A stretch of 64,000 nucleotides of DNA from a virus (taxonomy: Duplodnaviria; Caudoviricetes), in IMG/VR virus record IMGVR_UViG_3300029288_000001, positions 64,001-128,000 of that record. One strand, written 5' to 3'. A program made the translations under genes and the position numbers. Below, piece by piece: positions 497 to 19,655 of this stretch (the stretch's first letter is position 1; each line of letters begins with the position of its first letter). The notes beneath the pieces were generated by a model. It was not told where the DNA came from. It did no database searches and worked only from the letters and a program-made list of their open reading frames with translations.

Positions 497-1894
497 TTAT
501 TCTCCCCCGATTCCGTCTTCCGTCACGGTAAAGATCGCTTCTCCTTCTGGGAGACACGGCGAGTCTACGATCTTGGCGATCCTCTGCTCTCCTTTTCCTT
601 TCCTCAGATACACGCGCATAGTCGTGCCGTGGGCGACGATGTTCCCCCCTGCCGCTTGAATTGGATTTCCGTAGAATGTATCGGGCTTCGATTGAACCTG
701 ATTCGTAACGATGATCGCTAAGTCGGGATAAATGTCGCACAGTCTCAACAGATCGTGGATGTGGCTATTAAGGGTTTGTTGCCGATTCGCTAAGGTCCCT
801 CTCCCAACATACTCGCTTCTAAAGTGTCCTACGAGAGAATCTACGATCACGAGTTTTATGTTCCTCTCTTTCACAAAATTTTGGTTTAATAATTGTTTCG
901 CGAGGAGGATTTGGTGATCGCAGTTATACACGCGTCCATAAAGGATATTCTTTAACGCCTTATCGGGATCGATTCCTTTAGCTTTCGCCATGCTGATAAT
1001 ACGCTCGGGTCGAAAAGTTCCTTCTGTATCTAGATAAACGGCAGTGCCTCCTAGTCCACCGCTTTCCTTGGGTAGCTGGACGTTCACGCAGAGCTGATGG
1101 GCGATCTGTGTCTTTCCGGTTCTATATTCCCCAAAGAACTCGGTCATGCTTCCCGTTTCTATACCCCCTCCCAACAACTCGTCTAACTCGTGGGAGCTCG
1201 TGGTTATTCGCGCCATGTTCCTTCTATGTTCCCAGACTTCTGTTCCAGATTTGAAACATACGTTAGCTTTTTCCATCGCGTCTTTTATAATCTTCTCGGC
1301 GGTCTTTTCTCCCAGCCCGCTCTCTTCTTGGATGATCTTGGGAGGAGTCATGGCAATAGATTCGAAACTACTAAAACCTGCCTTCACGAGCTTCGTCGCG
1401 GTCGCTTTTCCTACGCCTTCGATTGTCATTATTAACGCTACGGCGTCCGCATCTGCGCCACTCATGTCTATCTTCTCGTCGTCGTCAGTATCCTTGTCCT
1501 TGTCTTTACTCTTGGATTTCGCCTTCGCCTTCTTGGTCTTAGTCTTAGTCTTGGGTTCTGCATCCTCGTTCTCGTCCTTACCTGCGAGATCGAACTCTTC
1601 TTCTTCTATTTCTTCTAAGAAATTAACATCTTCCTCAATAGGGGCGGGCTTCTCTTTCACCTCTTCTTCGAGACCGACCTTCTTGGGAGGATCCTCCTCG
1701 ACTACGAGTTCCATCTCTTCTACTACTATTTCTTTCTTCTCTTCTTCGTTGGTTTTTACTTCCATATTTTTATTCACTTCCGCGCCACCGACCCCTTCTG
1801 GGACTTCCTCCTTCGCGAACTTCAAATGCTCTTCGTAGATCTTTCCCTTCTGGTGGTTGTGGTGGCATTCCGTACAATAATATTCCTTTTCCAT
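497..1894 (-). CDS. radA: RadA/Rad51-family recombinase with long acidic N-terminal extension
   Basis: HhH (IEGVGKATA), LDELLGGGIETG, Walker A GEYRTGKT, YLDTEGTFRPER, Walker B VIVDS, EYVGRGTLANRQ, TNQV, DSPCLPEGEA. Confidence 0.95.
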   Translation of the reverse strand: MEKEYYCTECHHNHQKGKIYEEHLKFAKEEVPEGVGGAEVNKNMEVKTNEEEKKEIVVEEMELVVEEDPPKKVGLEEEVKEKPAPIEEDVNFLEEIEEEEFDLAGKDENEDAEPKTKTKTKKAKAKSKSKDKDKDTDDDEKIDMSGADADAVALIMTIEGVGKATATKLVKAGFSSFESIAMTPPKIIQEESGLGEKTAEKIIKDAMEKANVCFKSGTEVWEHRRNMARITTSSHELDELLGGGIETGSMTEFFGEYRTGKTQIAHQLCVNVQLPKESGGLGGTAVYLDTEGTFRPERIISMAKAKGIDPDKALKNILYGRVYNCDHQILLAKQLLNQNFVKERNIKLVIVDSLVGHFRSEYVGRGTLANRQQTLNSHIHDLLRLCDIYPDLAIIVTNQVQSKPDTFYGNPIQAAGGNIVAHGTTMRVYLRKGKGEQRIAKIVDSPCLPEGEAIFTVTEDGIGGE

Positions 1895-1984
1895 GGGTTA
1901 AATCTTCTTTTAAGTATAGTAACTATAATTTTTTTATATTTAAATAATTACTCTCTTGAAAAAAAATAAATTAATGATCGTTTT

Positions 1985-4442
1985 TTATTCTTCTTTTAAA
2001 TATTTTGGTGTCTTATACTCCGCGTATTTATCTAACCCTTTCTTGGGTATGAATTTATCTACGATCGGATAATGCTTGTGCTCTAAGATGTCTTTTACAT
2101 CGAAGTAATGAATAGTAATCTCGTTCTCGCGTTTTAACCGCGCTACCTCCGCTCTAAAATCCGCCGAGAATTCCGTCGCGATGAAGATCCCTTCCGTCTG
2201 CTTCTCTCTTAATAGAGTCCCGCTAAACGCGTCTAGATGAGCGCGCCCCGCCTTGAATTTCTTTACTTGGATAAGGCACTCCCCCAGATTGCCGTCTATG
2301 CCGCCGTCGGCGCCTCTATTGCCCGAGAAGCCTCCAAACTCGCGTATGACGAAGTTCTGGAACTCGTAGCCGTCAAGCTGGGCGATCTCCTCGGGGGTGA
2401 TGGGTAGTCCTTCTATGATATCGAACCTTACTTTAAGGCGCTTGGCGATCAACCTACACGCAGTAGGAGATACATCTATTCCGATCCATTGCCTGTTGAG
2501 TTTCTTCGCTACGGCGATCGTTGTGCCACAGTTCCCATTCAATATTACTTTTCCTTCTCTTCTTATAATGATTATATGGGAAGGAACTGTTACACAATAT
2601 ACATAGTCGTTCCAATCAATAATTTCTGCGTGTTTTAATGTAGACTCGGTTCGTTTAATCGTTCCGCTGATGCAATAACATATACTCTTCGACCAGAATA
2701 ATCGACCATCCTTTGACATTTTTTTCTCCGTTCGTGGTAGTCGTTTTGAAATCGTAACACATATACCAAGCTTAACCATTATTTCTGCTATGTTATCAAT
2801 TAATTGTTTTGAAATGCTATAGATCCGTATTCCATCTTCCCTTGTCATTCCATCTGATAAGATTAAGCCTTCTAATACATCTTGTAAGTATGGTTTATCG
2901 TAGTTTAGAACTTCTCTTGGTATCGTGCGTGTTGGTTGTTTGTGGCATTGTTTAAGATAAGTAAAGATCTCTTCGTTGTTAAAGGTATATCGTCCTTCAG
3001 TTTTCTTCCAAACTATGTTCATTTTGTTTAAGAAGTTTTTAATGTAACTATCGTTGTCTTTTATTTGGCGTATTCCTACACGATACCCCGTTGATGTTTT
3101 TCCTTCGTCAATATATCCATCACCTAGCCAGAATCCAAGGAACTTACACCATGCGTGTGGGTCTATGTTATTTGGTGGTTTCGGTATATTTCCAGAGCTA
3201 ATTCCATTGCAGTTTCTTTTAATTTTCGCTAGCCATTTTATGTCCTTAGCTTTGATAAAATCATAATCTGTATAATGAAATGTTGGGGCGGTCTTTCTCT
3301 CAGCCGCATACATGTTATGATCGGGCGTGACTAAAATGTCATACATTGTGGATTTCCAGTGATACATCTTTCCATTATGGATATATTTCTGTTTCGTTAT
3401 AGCATCTACATATTCAATGGTATTACCTTCTACTTGGGCGATCCTTTCGTTTTCTAGGTTCTTAAATTTTACCCATCCGTTCTCTGTTAATAACTCCGTT
3501 TCTCCATCGTAACATCCACAAAACGCGTCAAGGACGACATCGTTCTCGTTGGAACTGGTTTTGATTATACGTTCTAAGAGCGCTTCTGGCTTCTGTGTTG
3601 GATAACCAAGTCGTTCTTTTGATGACGGATGTAAATACATTCCATCCCATACATCTGAGCATGGTATATTAGCATCGAGATATTTTTTATAATTAGGTAA
3701 TCCTCCACTCGACCATTCGAACTCTCCACCATTCCTTACGAATTCGTCTATCTTATTTTGAGTCCATACCCAACCGTGTTTATTATCTAATTGAACTGTT
3801 TTGTCTTCCGTTGGGAAGTATCTACTTTGACCTTTTGAGACATCTACATAACTATTAGCTTTTATGATAGTTATACTTCTATAATATCCTTTGTTATCTT
3901 TTTTCTTGTATTGACCAGATAGATCTTTGGACTTTTCTTTTTGAATGTTAAATATATAATCGTCTGATTTGGTATAAATCAATATTACATCGTGGATTAC
4001 TCCAAATTTATTAGTGCCAGTTCCTTTAGCGTTCGTTCTCAACCAGCATATACGATTTAAAGGATCTCTATCGAATATTTGATCGCATAGAACTCTTAAA
4101 TACGCGTCCGCGTGCCAGTCGCAATGGAGATAGAAGCTTCCCGTTTTTTTAAGAACCCGATATATTTCCTTAATTCTCGGTTCCATCCACTCCAGATACA
4201 CGTTGATATCCTTCTTCGCCCGTCCGCTCCCGTTCTTGTTCTCGGTAATCCAACGGTCTCCAAACTGCCGTATTTCCGCGCCGTCGCCCCAAATGACCTC
4301 GTAGTTCTTGATCGCGAAGGATTAGTAAAATCTAATCGGTTTTCGTGAAGAACGGAGGGTCTATGTAGACGAGATCGACGGACTCGGATTCCAAGGTCTT
4401 GAGGACTTCTAAATTATCTCCACATATTATTCTTTCTATCAT
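1985..4442 (-). CDS. beta-class N6/N4 DNA methyltransferase fused to Mrr-like endonuclease domain; two exons (4442-4342 and 4310-1985) plus an intein
   Basis: Exon 1 reads MIERIICGDNLEVLK...VDLVYIDPPFF (motif IV). Exon 2 has KNYEVIWGD, GSFYLHCDWHA, YPTQKPEALLERII, motif I DAFCG/CGTT, WIGIDVS and C-terminal ADGGIDG...IQVK. Confidence 0.88.
2531..3514 (-). mobile_element. intein (328 aa) with LAGLIDADG homing endonuclease, inserted in methyltransferase motif I
   Basis: Starts CYDGETELLTENGW; block B VTPDHNMY; LAGLIDADG-like FLGFWLGDG and LEGLILSDG; ends VYCVTVPSH...LNGN followed by Cys+1; removal restores DAFCGCGTT. Confidence 0.93.
4311..4341 (-). other. 31-nt bulge-helix-bulge (archaeal tRNA-type) intron in the methyltransferase mRNA
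   Basis: Minus strand GTTCTT-CACG-AA^A-ACCGATTAG-ATTTTA-CTAATCCTT-CGCG-AT^C-AAGAAC; cleavage at the canonical bulge positions joins the frames to give DPPFFTNKNYEVIWGD. Confidence 0.78.
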
Positions 4443-5860
4443 TTTAATAACCTCTCTAAATATTCTGGATGATCCCTTTTCCATATTACGCCTTCTATTG
4501 AATATGGACTAATTCCTCTTTTTATAAGATCATCGTCTAATTTCTGAAAGATATTTTGTTTTCTTTTTCTTTTCTTCATTTCCTTAAACCTCTTTCTTGT
4601 TTTATGATCGTTTTAAACTATTTAAATAAAATTATTAATTAGAACTTACTTAGCGAAGGAGCAGATTCGTTAAATACTCCCATTCCTGTTTCTCTTCTTC
4701 CGTTACCTCTTCTTTCTTTAATACCAGCTTGGTGCGTAGGTAAATCCAACGATACGCGCGTTTCTTATCTATCCTTTTCGCGAGAATTTCTAACGCTTCT
4801 TCGCTTGGAAGACCTTTCTTTAACTTTTCAAAGTCTTCTAACGCTTCCATGAATTCTTTCACGGATTATCTCCTTCCAATTTCAAGAAATAAATACCTTC
4901 CTTCCCAATGTCATACCCCCGTATCCGATATTTCCGCTCGGGGTGGTTCTTGGTCGCGCGTTCAAGGCACGACTCGCAGAGCGCGATCACTTTAGAACCG
5001 CACCGCCAGCGCATTAATTCGCCTTTCGCGTCGTAGATGTCCACCGGGAGACCATCCTTGATACAGTCTTTTCCGCAGCACTTTACCACGTTATTTCTTC
5101 TCCAACTCCTTTTTATCGATTCCGCTTGCCAATTTATTAAAACACGCCCTACAAATTCGTTTCCCTTCGAACATAAACACTTGCCGTCGCTTCAATTTGG
5201 CAACGCACAACCCACAATACTTTTGTTTGGGTTCTCTTTTATAATCCGTTACTATTGGGCTCATGGTTCCTTTCTACCTCTCGGTCTCTTTTTTAATCCT
5301 CGTCGTCTTCTTCTTCTTCGTCGTCCTCGTCCTCGGTTATGGTGTCCATCGCCATTTCCCGTTCGTCTCTCGGAAGCTCGGATATCATGGACGCTCCCAG
5401 CATTCCAAACCACTCGCTATCGAGGACTACGGTGAGCTCGTTGTCTCCTTCCTTAATGCGGAAGTAATACTCACCTTCGTCGTTGTGACCTACAAGGTAA
5501 CGGATCTTCTTTCCTATATAATTTCTTTCTTCTTTCGTACCCTCCTTTTCGTAGCAGTCCCCGCACATTCCATGTTGTGTTATGGACTTTTTAATATCGC
5601 TAAAAAAAGACGAAGACACCACAATGGGAAGGATGGTTTCTCCTTCTTGAAAAGATATTGGCTCATTCATAGTATCAGACCATTTTCTTTTACATATTGG
5701 ACATTCTATATTCATATTTTTACACCTTTTTTATTCCGTAGTTCCCCGACTCGATCTGAGTCTAGGTTTAAAATAGGAAAAAAATGATTTGGTTTGGGTT
5801 TATATGTGTTTCGATTGAGGTAAAATTGTTCGTTTTCGTTCGTGATCGTCATAGAGCGGG

Positions 5861-18779: not shown

Positions 18780-19655
18780 TTACCCCTTTATTTTATCGTT
18801 TAAATAATTGAAGAACTCTTTCCTTGCCTTCTCTCCGATCGCTTTCTTGACTGCGTCCGTGATCACGGTCTCTCCTTTCGATTCTTTTTCCACATCCGCG
18901 ATCATTGCCTTGATCACATCTCCGGTATCTTTTTTATCAGGATCCGCAGGGAGACCATATTTCGTAGGGTTACTCATTAAATGACTAAGCCGCCCAGCAG
19001 TGACCCATTCTTCCGCGATCGCTTTCGCTTCTGTTAAGACCTTCAACTTCGCGGGATCGTCTATAGCTCGGGGAGTTTTAACTTCGTCGTATTCTGGGTT
19101 TCTATATTTCGCGATCACTCTAGAACCGTTGTTGGATGTAAACTCTTCTAATGGATGGAGCACTAACCCTTCGCGTAGATGCTCACCCATCTCTTTCTTT
19201 GCGGCTATCGTAGAAGGTAATCTCGCAACTCGCATTACTTCTTCTGGCGTAGCGTCTATGATCACAGAATCTACCACTTGTAACCCTAGTTGTCCTCCCA
19301 GTGCGATCGTTTTATCGAACGAAAGCCACATATCCTCTACTCGGATGTCGAACAAGATGAAATCTGAGTTCTTTCCATACATATGGCTCATTTTATTGAT
19401 CTTTCCTCCGTAGAACTCGCCATGGAGCTTCACTTTCTTAGTTCCAAACTTTTCGCGCATAAGAGCTAATAACTTCTCGTGGTTGAATAGCGCCTTAAAT
19501 ACATCTGCGGAACCTCCTCCTGAATGATAGAAAAGATTATCGTCCTTATAGGTAATCCACGCGCTCGTGCCGTGAATCTTCTCGGTCGCCCAGATCTTCT
19601 TAAACAACAATATTTGTTGGTTTTTATACAAATTCTCGATTTCTAAATAACCCAT
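18780..19655 (-). CDS. ATP-dependent RNA ligase, Rnl2-like
   Basis: Motif I TEKIHGTS, motif III LHGEFYG, IIIa ILFDI, IV REGLVL, V IAKYRN. Confidence 0.8.
   Translation of the reverse strand: MGYLEIENLYKNQQILLFKKIWATEKIHGTSAWITYKDDNLFYHSGGGSADVFKALFNHEKLLALMREKFGTKKVKLHGEFYGGKINKMSHMYGKNSDFILFDIRVEDMWLSFDKTIALGGQLGLQVVDSVIIDATPEEVMRVARLPSTIAAKKEMGEHLREGLVLHPLEEFTSNNGSRVIAKYRNPEYDEVKTPRAIDDPAKLKVLTEAKAIAEEWVTAGRLSHLMSNPTKYGLPADPDKKDTGDVIKAMIADVEKESKGETVITDAVKKAIGEKARKEFFNYLNDKIKG

What the first reader, a model, noticed from the sequence alone, without database searches (positions are those of the whole stretch)
4301..4352. Bulge-helix-bulge intron inside a protein-coding DNA methyltransferase gene
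Seen: the MTase N-terminus (ATG 4442, ...YIDPPFFT) is out of frame with the rest of the gene and hits TAG after 36 codons. The junction folds as GTTCTT/AAGAAC exon helix, 3-nt bulge ATC, 4-bp helix CACG/CGCG (one A-C mismatch), 3-nt bulge AAA, and an inner GATTAG/CTAATC hairpin. Known: archaeal splicing endonuclease EndA cuts after the second nucleotide of each bulge, and mRNA BHB introns are rare (the cbf5 intron is the classic case). Applying that rule removes exactly 31 nt (4341-4311) and gives in-frame DPPFFTNKNYEVIWGD, a normal MTase sequence. Inference: the element makes MTase expression depend on host tRNA splicing, and ORF callers miss the catalytic exon.
Basis: partly seen in the sequence, partly recalled or inferred. 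Interest (0 to 1): 0.85.

Follow-up and report, generated by a model that had tools for sequence, protein, structure and literature searches.

The report
tRNA-type intron splitting viral methylase gene
A 31-base insert breaks the only DNA methyltransferase gene of this type in a 225-kb virus of Asgard-type archaea, and it sits and folds so that the host's tRNA-splicing enzyme would cut it out and restore the normal protein; this kind of mRNA splicing is confirmed in print for one archaeal coding sequence.

Summary
On the minus strand a DNA methyltransferase gene starts at ATG 4442, runs 33 codons plus 2 nt, and hits TAG 4334-4332. The rest of the gene (4310-1985) is in another frame. Uninterrupted relatives, up to about 90% identical at the N-terminus, show a gap of exactly 31 nt (4341-4311). 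That gap lies where the bulge-helix-bulge (BHB) cleavage rule predicts, and removing it gives IDPPFFTNKNYEVIW, identical to a 78%-identical homolog.

The fold is a relaxed BHB, not a canonical one. It has a 6-bp exon helix, bulges AA|A and AT|C, a central helix with one A.C mismatch, and a weak inner helix. The canonical shape is 4-5.5 kcal/mol less stable than a slid minimum-energy fold. The virus's own tRNA-Leu intron has the same grade.

The virus is archaeal (MCM, RadA closest to Promethearchaeota). It encodes neither EndA nor RtcB; the candidate host genomes searched encode EndA, and two of three RtcB.

No relative carries the insert, so there is no covariation, and no transcript data were available. 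My best reading is a host-spliced mRNA intron (about 0.7); the main rival is an unspliced inactivating insertion. This scan has already reported similar introns in protein genes on other DNA.

The parts
4342..4442 (-). Exon 1 of the DNA methyltransferase: ATG 4442, then 33 codons plus the first two bases (AA) of the Asn codon. It encodes MIERIICGDN...YIDPPFFT, which contains catalytic motif IV (DPPF).
   Evidence: Translation. The start matches that of the uninterrupted relative L026/L059, which begins MIERIICGDN. Against L026 the codons are 18 identical, 10 synonymous changes and 5 non-synonymous changes. The ATG overlaps the TGA of the upstream 46-aa ORF (ATGA).
4311..4341 (-). The 31-nt insert, read as a BHB-type intron. 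It holds the in-frame TAG of exon 1's frame (4334-4332), the TAA that closes exon 2's frame upstream (4324-4322), a 6-bp hairpin (4337-4332 with 4325-4320), and CGCG (4316-4313), which pairs with exonic CACG.
   Evidence: Exact 31-nt gap against L023 and L024. BHB grade: outer 6, central 3 of 4, inner 1. No other copy in the genome or in IMG/VR.
4304..4353 (-). Full relaxed BHB motif. Exon helix GTTCTT (4353-4348) with AAGAAC (4309-4304). Central helix CACG (4347-4344) with CGCG (4316-4313), containing one A.C mismatch. 5' bulge AA|A (4343-4341). 3' bulge AT|C (4312-4310).
   Evidence: Among excisions that keep the methyltransferase frame and all conserved residues, this one has the best BHB grade.
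1985..4310 (-). Exon 2. It supplies the third base (C) of the Asn codon and then 774 codons plus the stop. It holds the rest of the N6_N4_Mtase domain, an intein and a C-terminal Mrr-like domain.
   Evidence: Translation. Pfam PF01555 at 1.3e-38 starts at profile position 20 of 221, so the N-terminal part of the domain is missing from this frame; PF04471 Mrr_cat also hits. After removing intron and intein the 480-aa product aligns end to end with P0004 (484 aa) at 75.7% identity.
2531..3514 (-). 328-aa LAGLIDADG intein that splits motif I (DAFCG|C...GN|CGTT) of the same gene.
   Evidence: Pfam LAGLIDADG_3 at 8e-09 and Hom_end at 9.3e-06. Boundaries come from comparison with the intein-less homologs P0004 and L026, which read FCGCGTT.
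4439..4579 (-). Upstream 46-aa ORF whose TGA overlaps the methyltransferase ATG (ATGA). This suggests translational coupling into exon 1.
   Evidence: The coupling itself is inferred.

Best explanation
The 31 nt at 4341-4311 (minus strand) are an archaeal splicing-endonuclease (BHB-type) intron inside the coding sequence of the virus's only PF01555 (N6/N4) DNA methyltransferase, just after catalytic motif IV.

Proposed mechanism (inferred):
1. In the pre-mRNA the exonic GUUCUU and AAGAAC pair.
2. Exonic CACG pairs with intronic CGCG, leaving AA|A and AU|C as two 3-nt bulges four base pairs apart.
3. The host EndA cuts after the second nucleotide of each bulge.
4. The host RtcB joins ...ACGAA to CAAGAAC..., creating an AAC (Asn) codon and the frame that reads DPPFFTNKNYEVIW.
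5. The intron is released, probably as a circle.

The 808-aa precursor then needs protein splicing of a 328-aa intein to give a 480-aa methyltransferase-Mrr fusion. Unspliced mRNA would yield only a 36-aa peptide, so methylase output depends on host tRNA-splicing capacity.

The insert is most likely a recently gained, tolerated selfish or neutral element, perhaps the remnant of a larger mobile intron, rather than an evolved regulator.

Shown here: the exact insertion, the geometry, the intact exons, the archaeal (Promethearchaeota-like) affinities of the virus, the absence of EndA and RtcB from the virus, and the presence of EndA in all three candidate host genomes searched and of RtcB in two of them.

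Inferred: cleavage, ligation and any regulatory effect.
For: 1. The DNA alignment with two 78%-identical uninterrupted genes has one gap of exactly 31 nt at AA|[31]|C. The spliced peptide IDPPFFTNKNYEVIW is identical to P0004 and to L026/L059.
2. Of the three possible placements of a 31-nt deletion, the BHB rule picks the one that gives Asn. This fits the FF[ST]N[KR]xYE pattern of most homologs.
3. Geometry: 6-bp exon helix, 3-nt bulges, 3 of 4 central pairs, 6-bp hairpin. The rough probability under a random-insertion null is 7e-6.
4. The virus's own tRNA-Leu(UAA) intron at position 37/38 must be removed for the tRNA to work and has no group I or II signature. It has the same grade: outer 6, central 3 of 4, inner 1.
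5. The gene is otherwise intact. The 480-aa mature product aligns end to end with homologs. Both exons show mostly synonymous differences from L026. Exon 1 keeps its start codon and an ATGA overlap with the upstream ORF.
6. A single ribosomal frameshift cannot join the frames. Exon 1's frame stops at 4334-4332, before exon 2's frame opens at 4321.
7. Archaeal context: MCM, RadA and an Orc1-like ATPase. RadA matches best over its full length in Promethearchaeota MAGs, at 56-65% identity.
8. Those MAGs encode EndA-domain proteins, two paralogs in G001 and three matches in G002. In G001, where the two were compared, one lacks the catalytic His, and the catalytic one is closest to the catalytic subunits in two Aeropyrum pernix EndA structures (3p1z_B, 3ajv_B). 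Two of the three MAGs also encode RtcB. The virus has neither.
9. An independently assembled ENA contig carries the identical sequence.
Against: - There is no RNA evidence.
- The insert is a singleton. None of about 100 homologous loci carries it and no copy exists elsewhere. So there is no conservation or covariation, and a very recent inactivating insertion cannot be excluded.
- The motif is relaxed: an A.C mismatch in the central helix, and only one A-U pair before a 2x2 loop on the inner side.
- The canonical BHB is 4-5.5 kcal/mol less stable than the slid minimum-energy fold, in which the 5' bulge is paired.
- BHB-like motifs that join ORFs are not enriched in this genome over decoys.
- The exon end CTTCACGAA and the intron end CTTCGCGAT form a 7-of-9 direct repeat. 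This could be a target-site-duplication-like footprint of a DNA-level insertion.
- Host identity and the substrate range of its EndA are inferred, not shown.
Confidence: 0.7

Rival explanations
1. Unspliced insertion, that is, a pseudogene. A small hairpin-forming DNA segment was inserted recently, possibly with an 8-9-bp target-site-like duplication. It inactivated the methyltransferase, and the BHB resemblance is coincidental or a by-product of inserting a palindrome between two naturally complementary codon runs (TTYTTY for Phe-Phe and AARAAY for Lys-Asn).
For: - The insert is unique to this genome.
- There is an imperfect direct repeat, CTTCACGAA and CTTCGCGAT, at the boundaries.
- The exon helix is largely dictated by the coding sequence and also exists, more weakly, in intron-less relatives.
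- The minimum-energy fold is not the BHB.
- Loose BHB motifs are common.
- Other metagenomic homologs do carry plain frameshifts in the same T-rich motif: L063 and L073.
Against: - The joint chance of landing in one of 6 suitable sites out of 2387 with an insert that supplies the central helix and a hairpin is about 7e-6.
- The cut sites given by the rule restore the frame and the consensus Asn exactly.
- No other lesion occurs in 808 codons, and the intein ORF is intact.
- A 23-31-nt element with no other copy is not a known transposon type.
Confidence: 0.17
2. Translational bypass (hopping), as in phage T4 gene 60 or the yeast mitochondrial byp elements. The ribosome takes off at TTC 4347-4345 (or AAA 4343-4341), skips the hairpin, and lands at TTC 4318-4316 (or AAG 4309-4307).
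For: - Matching take-off and landing codons exist because of the direct repeat.
- The TTC-to-TTC hop would give DPPFF-AI-KNYEV, the same length as homologs.
- A stop codon and a hairpin lie in the skipped stretch.
Against: - The stop is not adjacent to the take-off codon.
- The product would replace the Thr-Asn found in the closest relatives with Ala-Ile. The AAA-to-AAG hop would be one residue short of the constant FF-4 residues-Y spacing in the homologs examined.
- From my own knowledge, bypassing has not been described in archaea and needs a nascent-peptide signal that cannot be assessed here.
- The 3-nt, 4-bp, 3-nt geometry has no role in bypassing.
Confidence: 0.03
3. Assembly or sequencing artefact: the 31 nt are not present in the real viral genome.
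For: The insert is a singleton in a metagenome-derived genome, and hairpin sequences can arise from chimeric reads.
Against: The IMG/VR record (224,826 bp) and an ENA MEGAHIT contig (223,295 bp) carry an identical sequence over the 3.2-kb stretch compared (window 1485-4700). An artefact would not be expected to fit the BHB rule. Whether the two assemblies used the same reads is unknown.
Confidence: 0.03

Closest known systems
BHB intron in the cbf5 pre-mRNA of Desulfurococcales and Sulfolobales (Watanabe 2002; Yoshinari 2006; Yokobori 2009, PMC2738675)
   Same: - A short, ORF-less insert inside a coding sequence, at a catalytic motif.
- It disrupts the frame.
- The BHB is mostly unconventional (relaxed), with predicted cuts between the 2nd and 3rd bulge nucleotides.
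- Splicing is attributed to a hetero-oligomeric EndA.
   Different: - Here the gene belongs to a virus, not a cell, and the inferred host is an Asgard (Promethearchaeota) archaeon, not a crenarchaeon.
- The cbf5 intron is conserved across two orders and its splicing was shown by cDNA and in vitro cleavage. This insert is a singleton with no RNA evidence.
BHB intron in the 5' UTR of Haloferax volcanii HVO_1309 mRNA (PMC7714728)
   Same: An mRNA substrate of the archaeal splicing endonuclease outside tRNA and rRNA.
   Different: That intron is in an untranslated leader of a cellular gene and is experimentally confirmed. This one interrupts codons of a viral gene and is only predicted.
Archaeal tRNA introns at position 37/38, including this virus's own tRNA-Leu(UAA) intron (genome 144918-145502, locus L124)
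   Same: - Same arrangement: exon helix, 4-bp helix between exon and intron, and two 3-nt bulges.
- The viral tRNA-Leu intron has the identical grade: outer 6, central 3 of 4, inner 1.
   Different: - A tRNA body helps EndA recognition, whereas an mRNA context offers only the motif.
- The tRNA-Leu intron is 499 nt and carries an endonuclease VII ORF. The methylase intron is 31 nt and has no ORF.
Putative 12-bp introns in protein genes of rudivirus SIRV1 variants (Peng et al. 2004, as cited in PMC2738675)
   Same: A proposal that short inserts in protein-coding genes of an archaeal virus are spliced. Splicing was not demonstrated there either.
   Different: The SIRV1 inserts are 12 bp and in frame, and PMC2738675 says their insertion mechanism is unknown. 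The insert here breaks the frame and has explicit BHB geometry that matches the homology-defined junction.
Unconventional HAC1/XBP1 mRNA splicing in eukaryotes (Ire1 cleavage followed by ligation by tRNA ligase or RtcB)
   Same: It works alike: a protein endonuclease cuts two stem-loop sites in an mRNA, an RNA ligase of the tRNA-splicing pathway joins the exons, and the reading frame changes. This comparison rests on general knowledge plus the RtcB/HAC1 reference listed in PMC6379350.
   Different: The endonuclease (Ire1) and the recognition motif are different, and HAC1/XBP1 splicing is a regulated stress response. This is an analogy, not family membership.

Membership tests
Archaeal BHB (EndA/RtcB-spliced) intron | Two 3-nt bulges on opposite strands separated by a 4-bp helix | tested here: met
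   Bulges AAA (4343-4341) and AUC (4312-4310) flank CACG paired with CGCG. The spacing is exactly 4 positions.
Archaeal BHB (EndA/RtcB-spliced) intron | Strict hBHBh' form: all four central pairs standard, and flanking helices h and h' of at least 2 bp | tested here: not met
   The central helix has an A.C mismatch (3 of 4 pairs). The outer helix h is 6 bp. The inner helix h' is a single A-U pair followed by a 2x2 loop before the 6-bp hairpin. The motif is therefore relaxed, of the kind that PMC2738675, PMC5829648 and PMC12397907 describe as accepted by (alpha-beta)2 and epsilon2 EndAs.
Archaeal BHB (EndA/RtcB-spliced) intron | Cutting after the 2nd nucleotide of each bulge yields a functional mature RNA | tested here: met
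   Removing 4341-4311 gives an in-frame product identical to homologs across the junction, and a 480-aa mature protein that aligns end to end.
Archaeal BHB (EndA/RtcB-spliced) intron | The BHB is the preferred fold of the RNA | tested here: not met
   The minimum-energy fold at -17.4 kcal/mol is a slid pairing. The BHB evaluates at -11.9 to -13.4 kcal/mol, or -15.2 with only the six bulge nucleotides forced to be unpaired. This is supportive evidence rather than a strict defining feature.
Archaeal BHB (EndA/RtcB-spliced) intron | The host supplies EndA and RtcB | tested here: inconclusive
   The virus has neither enzyme. All three Promethearchaeota MAGs with the closest RadA have EndA, and two of them have RtcB. 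In G001 one of the two EndA paralogs lacks the catalytic His, which suggests a hetero-oligomeric enzyme. The actual host is inferred, and its EndA's substrate range was not tested.
Archaeal BHB (EndA/RtcB-spliced) intron | Spliced RNA or circular intron observed; cleavage demonstrated | not testable with these tools
   No transcriptome or biochemical data were available.
Archaeal BHB (EndA/RtcB-spliced) intron | The intron recurs in relatives, with structure kept by compensatory changes | tested here: not met
   None of 22 viral loci or the 78 of 80 metagenomic loci that reach the site has an insert there; two loci are cut off before it. No copies of the insert were found. Only the window's exon helix is fully Watson-Crick: AAGAAC against AAAAAT, AAGAAT and AAACAT in relatives. 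That is weak support.
Group I or group II self-splicing intron | A ribozyme core detectable by covariance models, and a length of hundreds of nt | tested here: not met
   No Rfam match at E-value up to 1 in 3900-4700. The insert is 31 nt.
Programmed ribosomal frameshift | A stretch where the old and new frames are both open, with a slippery site | tested here: not met
   Exon 1's frame ends at TAG 4334-4332, and exon 2's frame opens only after TAA 4324-4322. There is no overlap.
Translational bypass (T4 gene 60 type) | Matched take-off and landing codons, a stop codon directly after take-off, a take-off hairpin and a nascent-peptide signal | tested here: inconclusive
   A matched TTC/TTC pair and a hairpin exist, but the stop is four codons beyond the TTC take-off codon (two beyond AAA), and the product would differ from the sequence of the closest relatives. 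The peptide signal cannot be tested.

The most novel reading that the evidence does not exclude
The insert is really spliced in infected cells. Viruses of Asgard (Promethearchaeota) archaea then carry protein-coding genes that need the host's tRNA-splicing endonuclease and RtcB, here together with an intein in the same gene. Such mRNA introns would form a wider, unannotated population in these viruses and their hosts. That would place enzyme-catalysed mRNA splicing in the closest prokaryotic relatives of eukaryotes and cause systematic gene-calling errors.
Probability: 0.35. Interest if true: 0.8.

Novelty: new member of a known kind. Interest (0 to 1): 0.6.

Why it matters
In the papers I could search, confirmed splicing-endonuclease introns in archaeal mRNA comprise one coding sequence (cbf5) and one 5' UTR (PMC2738675, PMC7714728). 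No paper I found describes one in a viral protein gene with explicit BHB geometry.

If this insert is spliced, several things follow:
- Host tRNA-splicing machinery would be shown to process viral mRNA in an Asgard-type system.
- It would be a rare case of one gene needing both RNA splicing and protein splicing.
- Methylase expression would depend on a host enzyme.
- It is a concrete example of why gene callers miss catalytic exons in archaeal viruses: an independent annotation splits this gene into 50-aa and 738-aa ORFs.

The candidate is also easy to test, because a 66-nt substrate and two predicted cut sites are defined. Novelty is tempered by earlier follow-ups in this same scan, which already reported similar introns in protein genes on other DNA, including two on viral or virus-like DNA.

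Tried and rejected
- Genome-wide scan of all 224,826 bp for BHB geometry that also joins two open frames. One search timed out; searches ran. With both stops required to lie inside the intron, the true geometry gave 260 (+ strand) and 433 (- strand) hits. Decoys with the 3' partner slid by 1-3 nt gave 240-266 and 417-480. There is no enrichment, so the method cannot find or exclude further mRNA introns here.
- Search for other copies of the insert: in the window with up to 3 mismatches, in the whole genome with blastn-short, and in IMG/VR by exact core. Only the insert itself was found.
- Search for intron-bearing or intron-less near-identical alleles in IMG/VR with degenerate patterns. Nothing was found.
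- Search for short proteins resembling the exon-1 ORF. The hits were frameshifted or truncated fragments at other positions. One, P0126 in L127, diverges right after DPPF into hairpin-rich sequence, but its 832-bp contig ends before any exon 2. This is inconclusive.
- Start-less long open frames as possible 3' exons. Sixty-nine frames qualified. The two largest (718 and 547 codons) have no Pfam match, so the lead was dropped.
- tRNA-Ser(GGA). Aragorn's 55-nt intron does not fit any BHB register giving the predicted product: the canonical register has only 2 of 4 central pairs by inspection, and no such register passed the scan. I left it unexplained.
- Group I or II intron reading: no Rfam hits.
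- Single ribosomal frameshift: excluded because the two frames do not overlap.
Full report
**What is there.** The window is bases 64001-128000 of a 224,826-bp virus record with direct terminal repeats. On the minus strand an ORF starts at ATG 4442 and encodes MIERIICGDN...YIDPPFFT. It continues as Lys-Thr-Asp and stops at TAG 4334-4332. A second frame opens after TAA 4324-4322 and runs 778 codons to the stop at 1985. In that frame Pfam finds N6_N4_Mtase (PF01555, 1.3e-38), but the match begins at profile position 20. It also finds a LAGLIDADG homing-endonuclease region and a C-terminal Mrr-like domain.

**Homologs define the insertion.**
- The two nearest full-length proteins, P0004 and P0005, are 78% identical over the methyltransferase core, 484 aa long and uninterrupted.
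- Aligning their DNA (L023, L024) with the window gives one gap of exactly 31 nt, with AA on its 5' side and C (T in the homologs) on its 3' side.
- Removing 4341-4311 gives IDPPFFTNKNYEVIW. This string is identical in P0004 and in L026/L059, whose first 110 residues are about 90% identical to the window's and which share the start MIERIICGDN.
- All 21 IMG/VR loci that reach the site are uninterrupted.
- Of 80 metagenomic loci, 76 read straight through the site, two are cut off before it, and two carry only 1-nt frameshifts in the T-run of the DPPFF codons.
- After removing the 31 nt and the 328-aa intein (3514-2531), the 480-aa product aligns end to end with P0004 at 75.7% identity with one gap.
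- Against L026, exon 1 has 18 identical, 10 synonymous and 5 non-synonymous codons. Codons 34-110 have 30, 44 and 3. Both exons have therefore evolved as coding sequence.
- An independently assembled ENA contig (223,295 bp) is identical across the 3.2-kb stretch compared (window 1485-4700), and its gene calls split the gene into 50-aa and 738-aa ORFs.

**The structure.** In RNA terms:
- GUUCUU (4353-4348) pairs with AAGAAC (4309-4304).
- CACG (4347-4344) pairs with CGCG (4316-4313), with one A.C mismatch.
- AAA (4343-4341) and AUC (4312-4310) are left as 3-nt bulges four pairs apart.
- GAUUAG and CUAAUC form a 6-bp hairpin.

This is the arrangement of an archaeal pre-tRNA: the 5' strand of the central helix is exonic and the 3' strand is intronic. 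The rule of cutting after the second bulge nucleotide gives exactly the 31-nt excision that homology demands. Of the three 31-nt deletions possible at this spot (giving Ile, Asn or Lys), it selects Asn, the residue most homologs have.

Two caveats apply.
- The motif is relaxed. Beyond the A.C mismatch, the inner side has only one A-U pair before a 2x2 loop, so the 5' cut site lies in an internal loop.
- RNAfold prefers a slid pairing (-17.4 kcal/mol, z = -4.3), in which two bulge A residues pair with UU and the 3' bulge becomes UCA. The canonical BHB scores -11.9 to -13.4 kcal/mol. The slid register would not restore the frame.

**Is it more than chance?** A loose BHB pattern is common. Genome-wide scans combining BHB geometry with ORF joining gave no excess over slid decoys. 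The argument rests on coincidence with the homology-defined junction.
- Only 6 of 2387 positions in the spliced gene have a 6-bp or longer exon-exon helix in register.
- Only 0.3% of shuffled inserts at the true site supply at least 3 of 4 central pairs plus a 6-bp hairpin.
- The joint figure is about 7e-6.
- Among alternative excisions that keep the methyltransferase frame and all conserved residues, this one has the best grade.

The exon helix partly comes free with the coding sequence, because Phe-Phe TTYTTY is complementary to Lys-Asn AARAAY. Even so, only the window's version is fully Watson-Crick.

**Context.**
- The virus encodes MCM, a RadA with a helix-hairpin-helix (HhH) domain, an Orc1-like ATPase and an RNA ligase.
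- Its RadA, including the N-terminal extension, matches best in Promethearchaeia and Promethearchaeota MAGs at 56-65% identity. Thermoproteota match only the core, at 50-53%.
- The nearest named cellular methylase is from a Lokiarchaeota MAG.
- The virus has no EndA or RtcB.
- All three Promethearchaeota MAGs have EndA and two have RtcB.
- Two of the MAGs carry more than one EndA-domain gene. In G001, where I compared the two paralogs, they are 32% identical. One keeps the catalytic His and is closest to the catalytic subunits in two Aeropyrum pernix EndA structures (3p1z_B, 3ajv_B). The other has Ser at that position.
- This suggests a hetero-oligomeric EndA. PMC2738675 and PMC5829648 associate that type with relaxed motifs and with the cbf5 mRNA intron. 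The link to this host is an inference.

**An internal comparator.** The virus's tRNA-Leu(UAA) carries a 499-nt intron at position 37/38 with an endonuclease VII ORF (Pfam 9.6e-22) and no group I or II signature. Its BHB has the same grade as the methylase insert: outer 6, central 3 of 4, inner 1. If the host splices that tRNA, it accepts motifs of this quality, at least within a tRNA body.

**Alternatives.**
- A single ribosomal frameshift is excluded, because the two frames are never open together.
- A self-splicing intron is excluded by size and by the absence of Rfam matches.
- Translational bypass is conceivable. A TTC-to-TTC hop would give a product of the right length, but it would replace the Thr-Asn of the closest relatives, and the stop is not adjacent to the take-off codon.
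- The serious rival is a recent, unspliced insertion. The insert is a singleton with no other copy. Its boundaries show a 7-of-9 direct repeat (CTTCACGAA and CTTCGCGAT). I cannot tell whether that repeat is a target-duplication footprint or a by-product of the palindromic CGCG needed for the central helix.
- The rest of the gene is intact, and this is the virus's only PF01555 methylase. Together with the exact fit to the cleavage rule, this makes me prefer splicing at about 0.7.

**Comparison with what is known.** PMC7714728 (2020) states that cbf5 is the only other reported BHB intron in an mRNA besides its own 5' UTR case. PMC2738675 notes that introns in other protein genes were only predicted. 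It cites 12-bp inserts in SIRV1 genes as unproven viral candidates. My searches found no paper describing a BHB intron in a viral protein-coding gene or in Asgard viruses. Like the cbf5 intron, this insert sits at a catalytic motif and uses a relaxed motif. Unlike it, this insert is not conserved and has no experimental support.

Earlier follow-ups in this scan reported comparable introns on other DNA: a viral DUF932 gene, a viral Sak4-like ATPase, and the cellular EF-2, mtnA, TBP and uppS genes. I did not test those. They mean this is not the scan's first such case.

**Verdict.** I class it as a new member of a known kind, in a new setting: a large virus of Asgard-type archaea, with the intron and an intein in the same gene.

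Noticed in passing
window 2531-3514 (-): A 328-aa LAGLIDADG intein splits motif I (FCG|CGTT) of the same methyltransferase. It ends in Gly-Asn rather than the usual His-Asn. The gene therefore needs both RNA splicing and protein splicing.
   Followed up: partly
L124:519-1103 (-) = genome 144918-145502, outside the window: tRNA-Leu(UAA) carries a 499-nt intron at position 37/38. It encodes a 148-aa endonuclease VII-family protein (PF02945, 9.6e-22) and has no group I or II Rfam hit. Its BHB has 3 of 4 central pairs, with a U.U mismatch, and the ORF's TAG lies in the central helix.
   Followed up: partly
L124:281-421 (-) = genome 144680-144820: Aragorn calls tRNA-Ser(GGA) with a 55-nt intron, but no BHB register fits it. 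The 'intron' contains a second perfect anticodon arm, CGAGA-UUGCUAU-UCUCG, with anticodon GCU, which is also Ser. This could be a gene with two alternative anticodon arms, or a mis-call.
   Followed up: partly
window 4311-4350 (-): There is an imperfect 9-nt direct repeat: the end of exon 1 (CTTCACGAA) and the end of the intron (CTTCGCGAT) match at 7 of 9 positions. It may be a footprint of how the insert was gained, or a side effect of the palindromic CGCG.
   Followed up: no
window 497-1894 (-), 26276-28480 (-), 28500-29693 (-), 18780-19655 (-): The window encodes RadA/Rad51 with an N-terminal extension and HhH domain, a full MCM, an Orc1-like AAA ATPase and a PF09414 RNA ligase. RadA is closest to Promethearchaeota MAGs. 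At 225 kb the genome exceeds the 3-188 kb range given in the abstract of an archaeal virus database paper (PMC13465236).
   Followed up: partly
L026 (metagenome contig Ga0129299_1007092), whole gene from locus position 1399: This 455-aa uninterrupted homolog shares a near-identical N-terminus (about 110 aa) and a closely similar C-terminal methylase-Mrr part with the window's protein, but its central segment differs. This suggests mosaic exchange of the target-recognition region.
   Followed up: no
L063 and L073 (metagenome loci), about 100 nt upstream of the match start: Two homologous methylase genes carry 1-nt frameshifts inside the T-run of the DPPFF codons. These are either homopolymer sequencing errors or real inactivations.
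   Followed up: no
L127:585-832 (+): A short ORF from an 832-bp contig matches the methylase N-terminus up to DPPF(Y). It then runs into GC-rich hairpins and a terminator-like element before the contig ends. This may be a larger insertion at the same site in another genome.
   Followed up: partly
genome 151881-154037 (-) and 162893-164536 (-), loci L125 and L126: Two long open frames (718 and 547 codons) have their first ATG, GTG or TTG only 97 and 145 codons after the frame opens. Neither has a Pfam match. They could use non-canonical starts or lack a 5' exon.
   Followed up: partly
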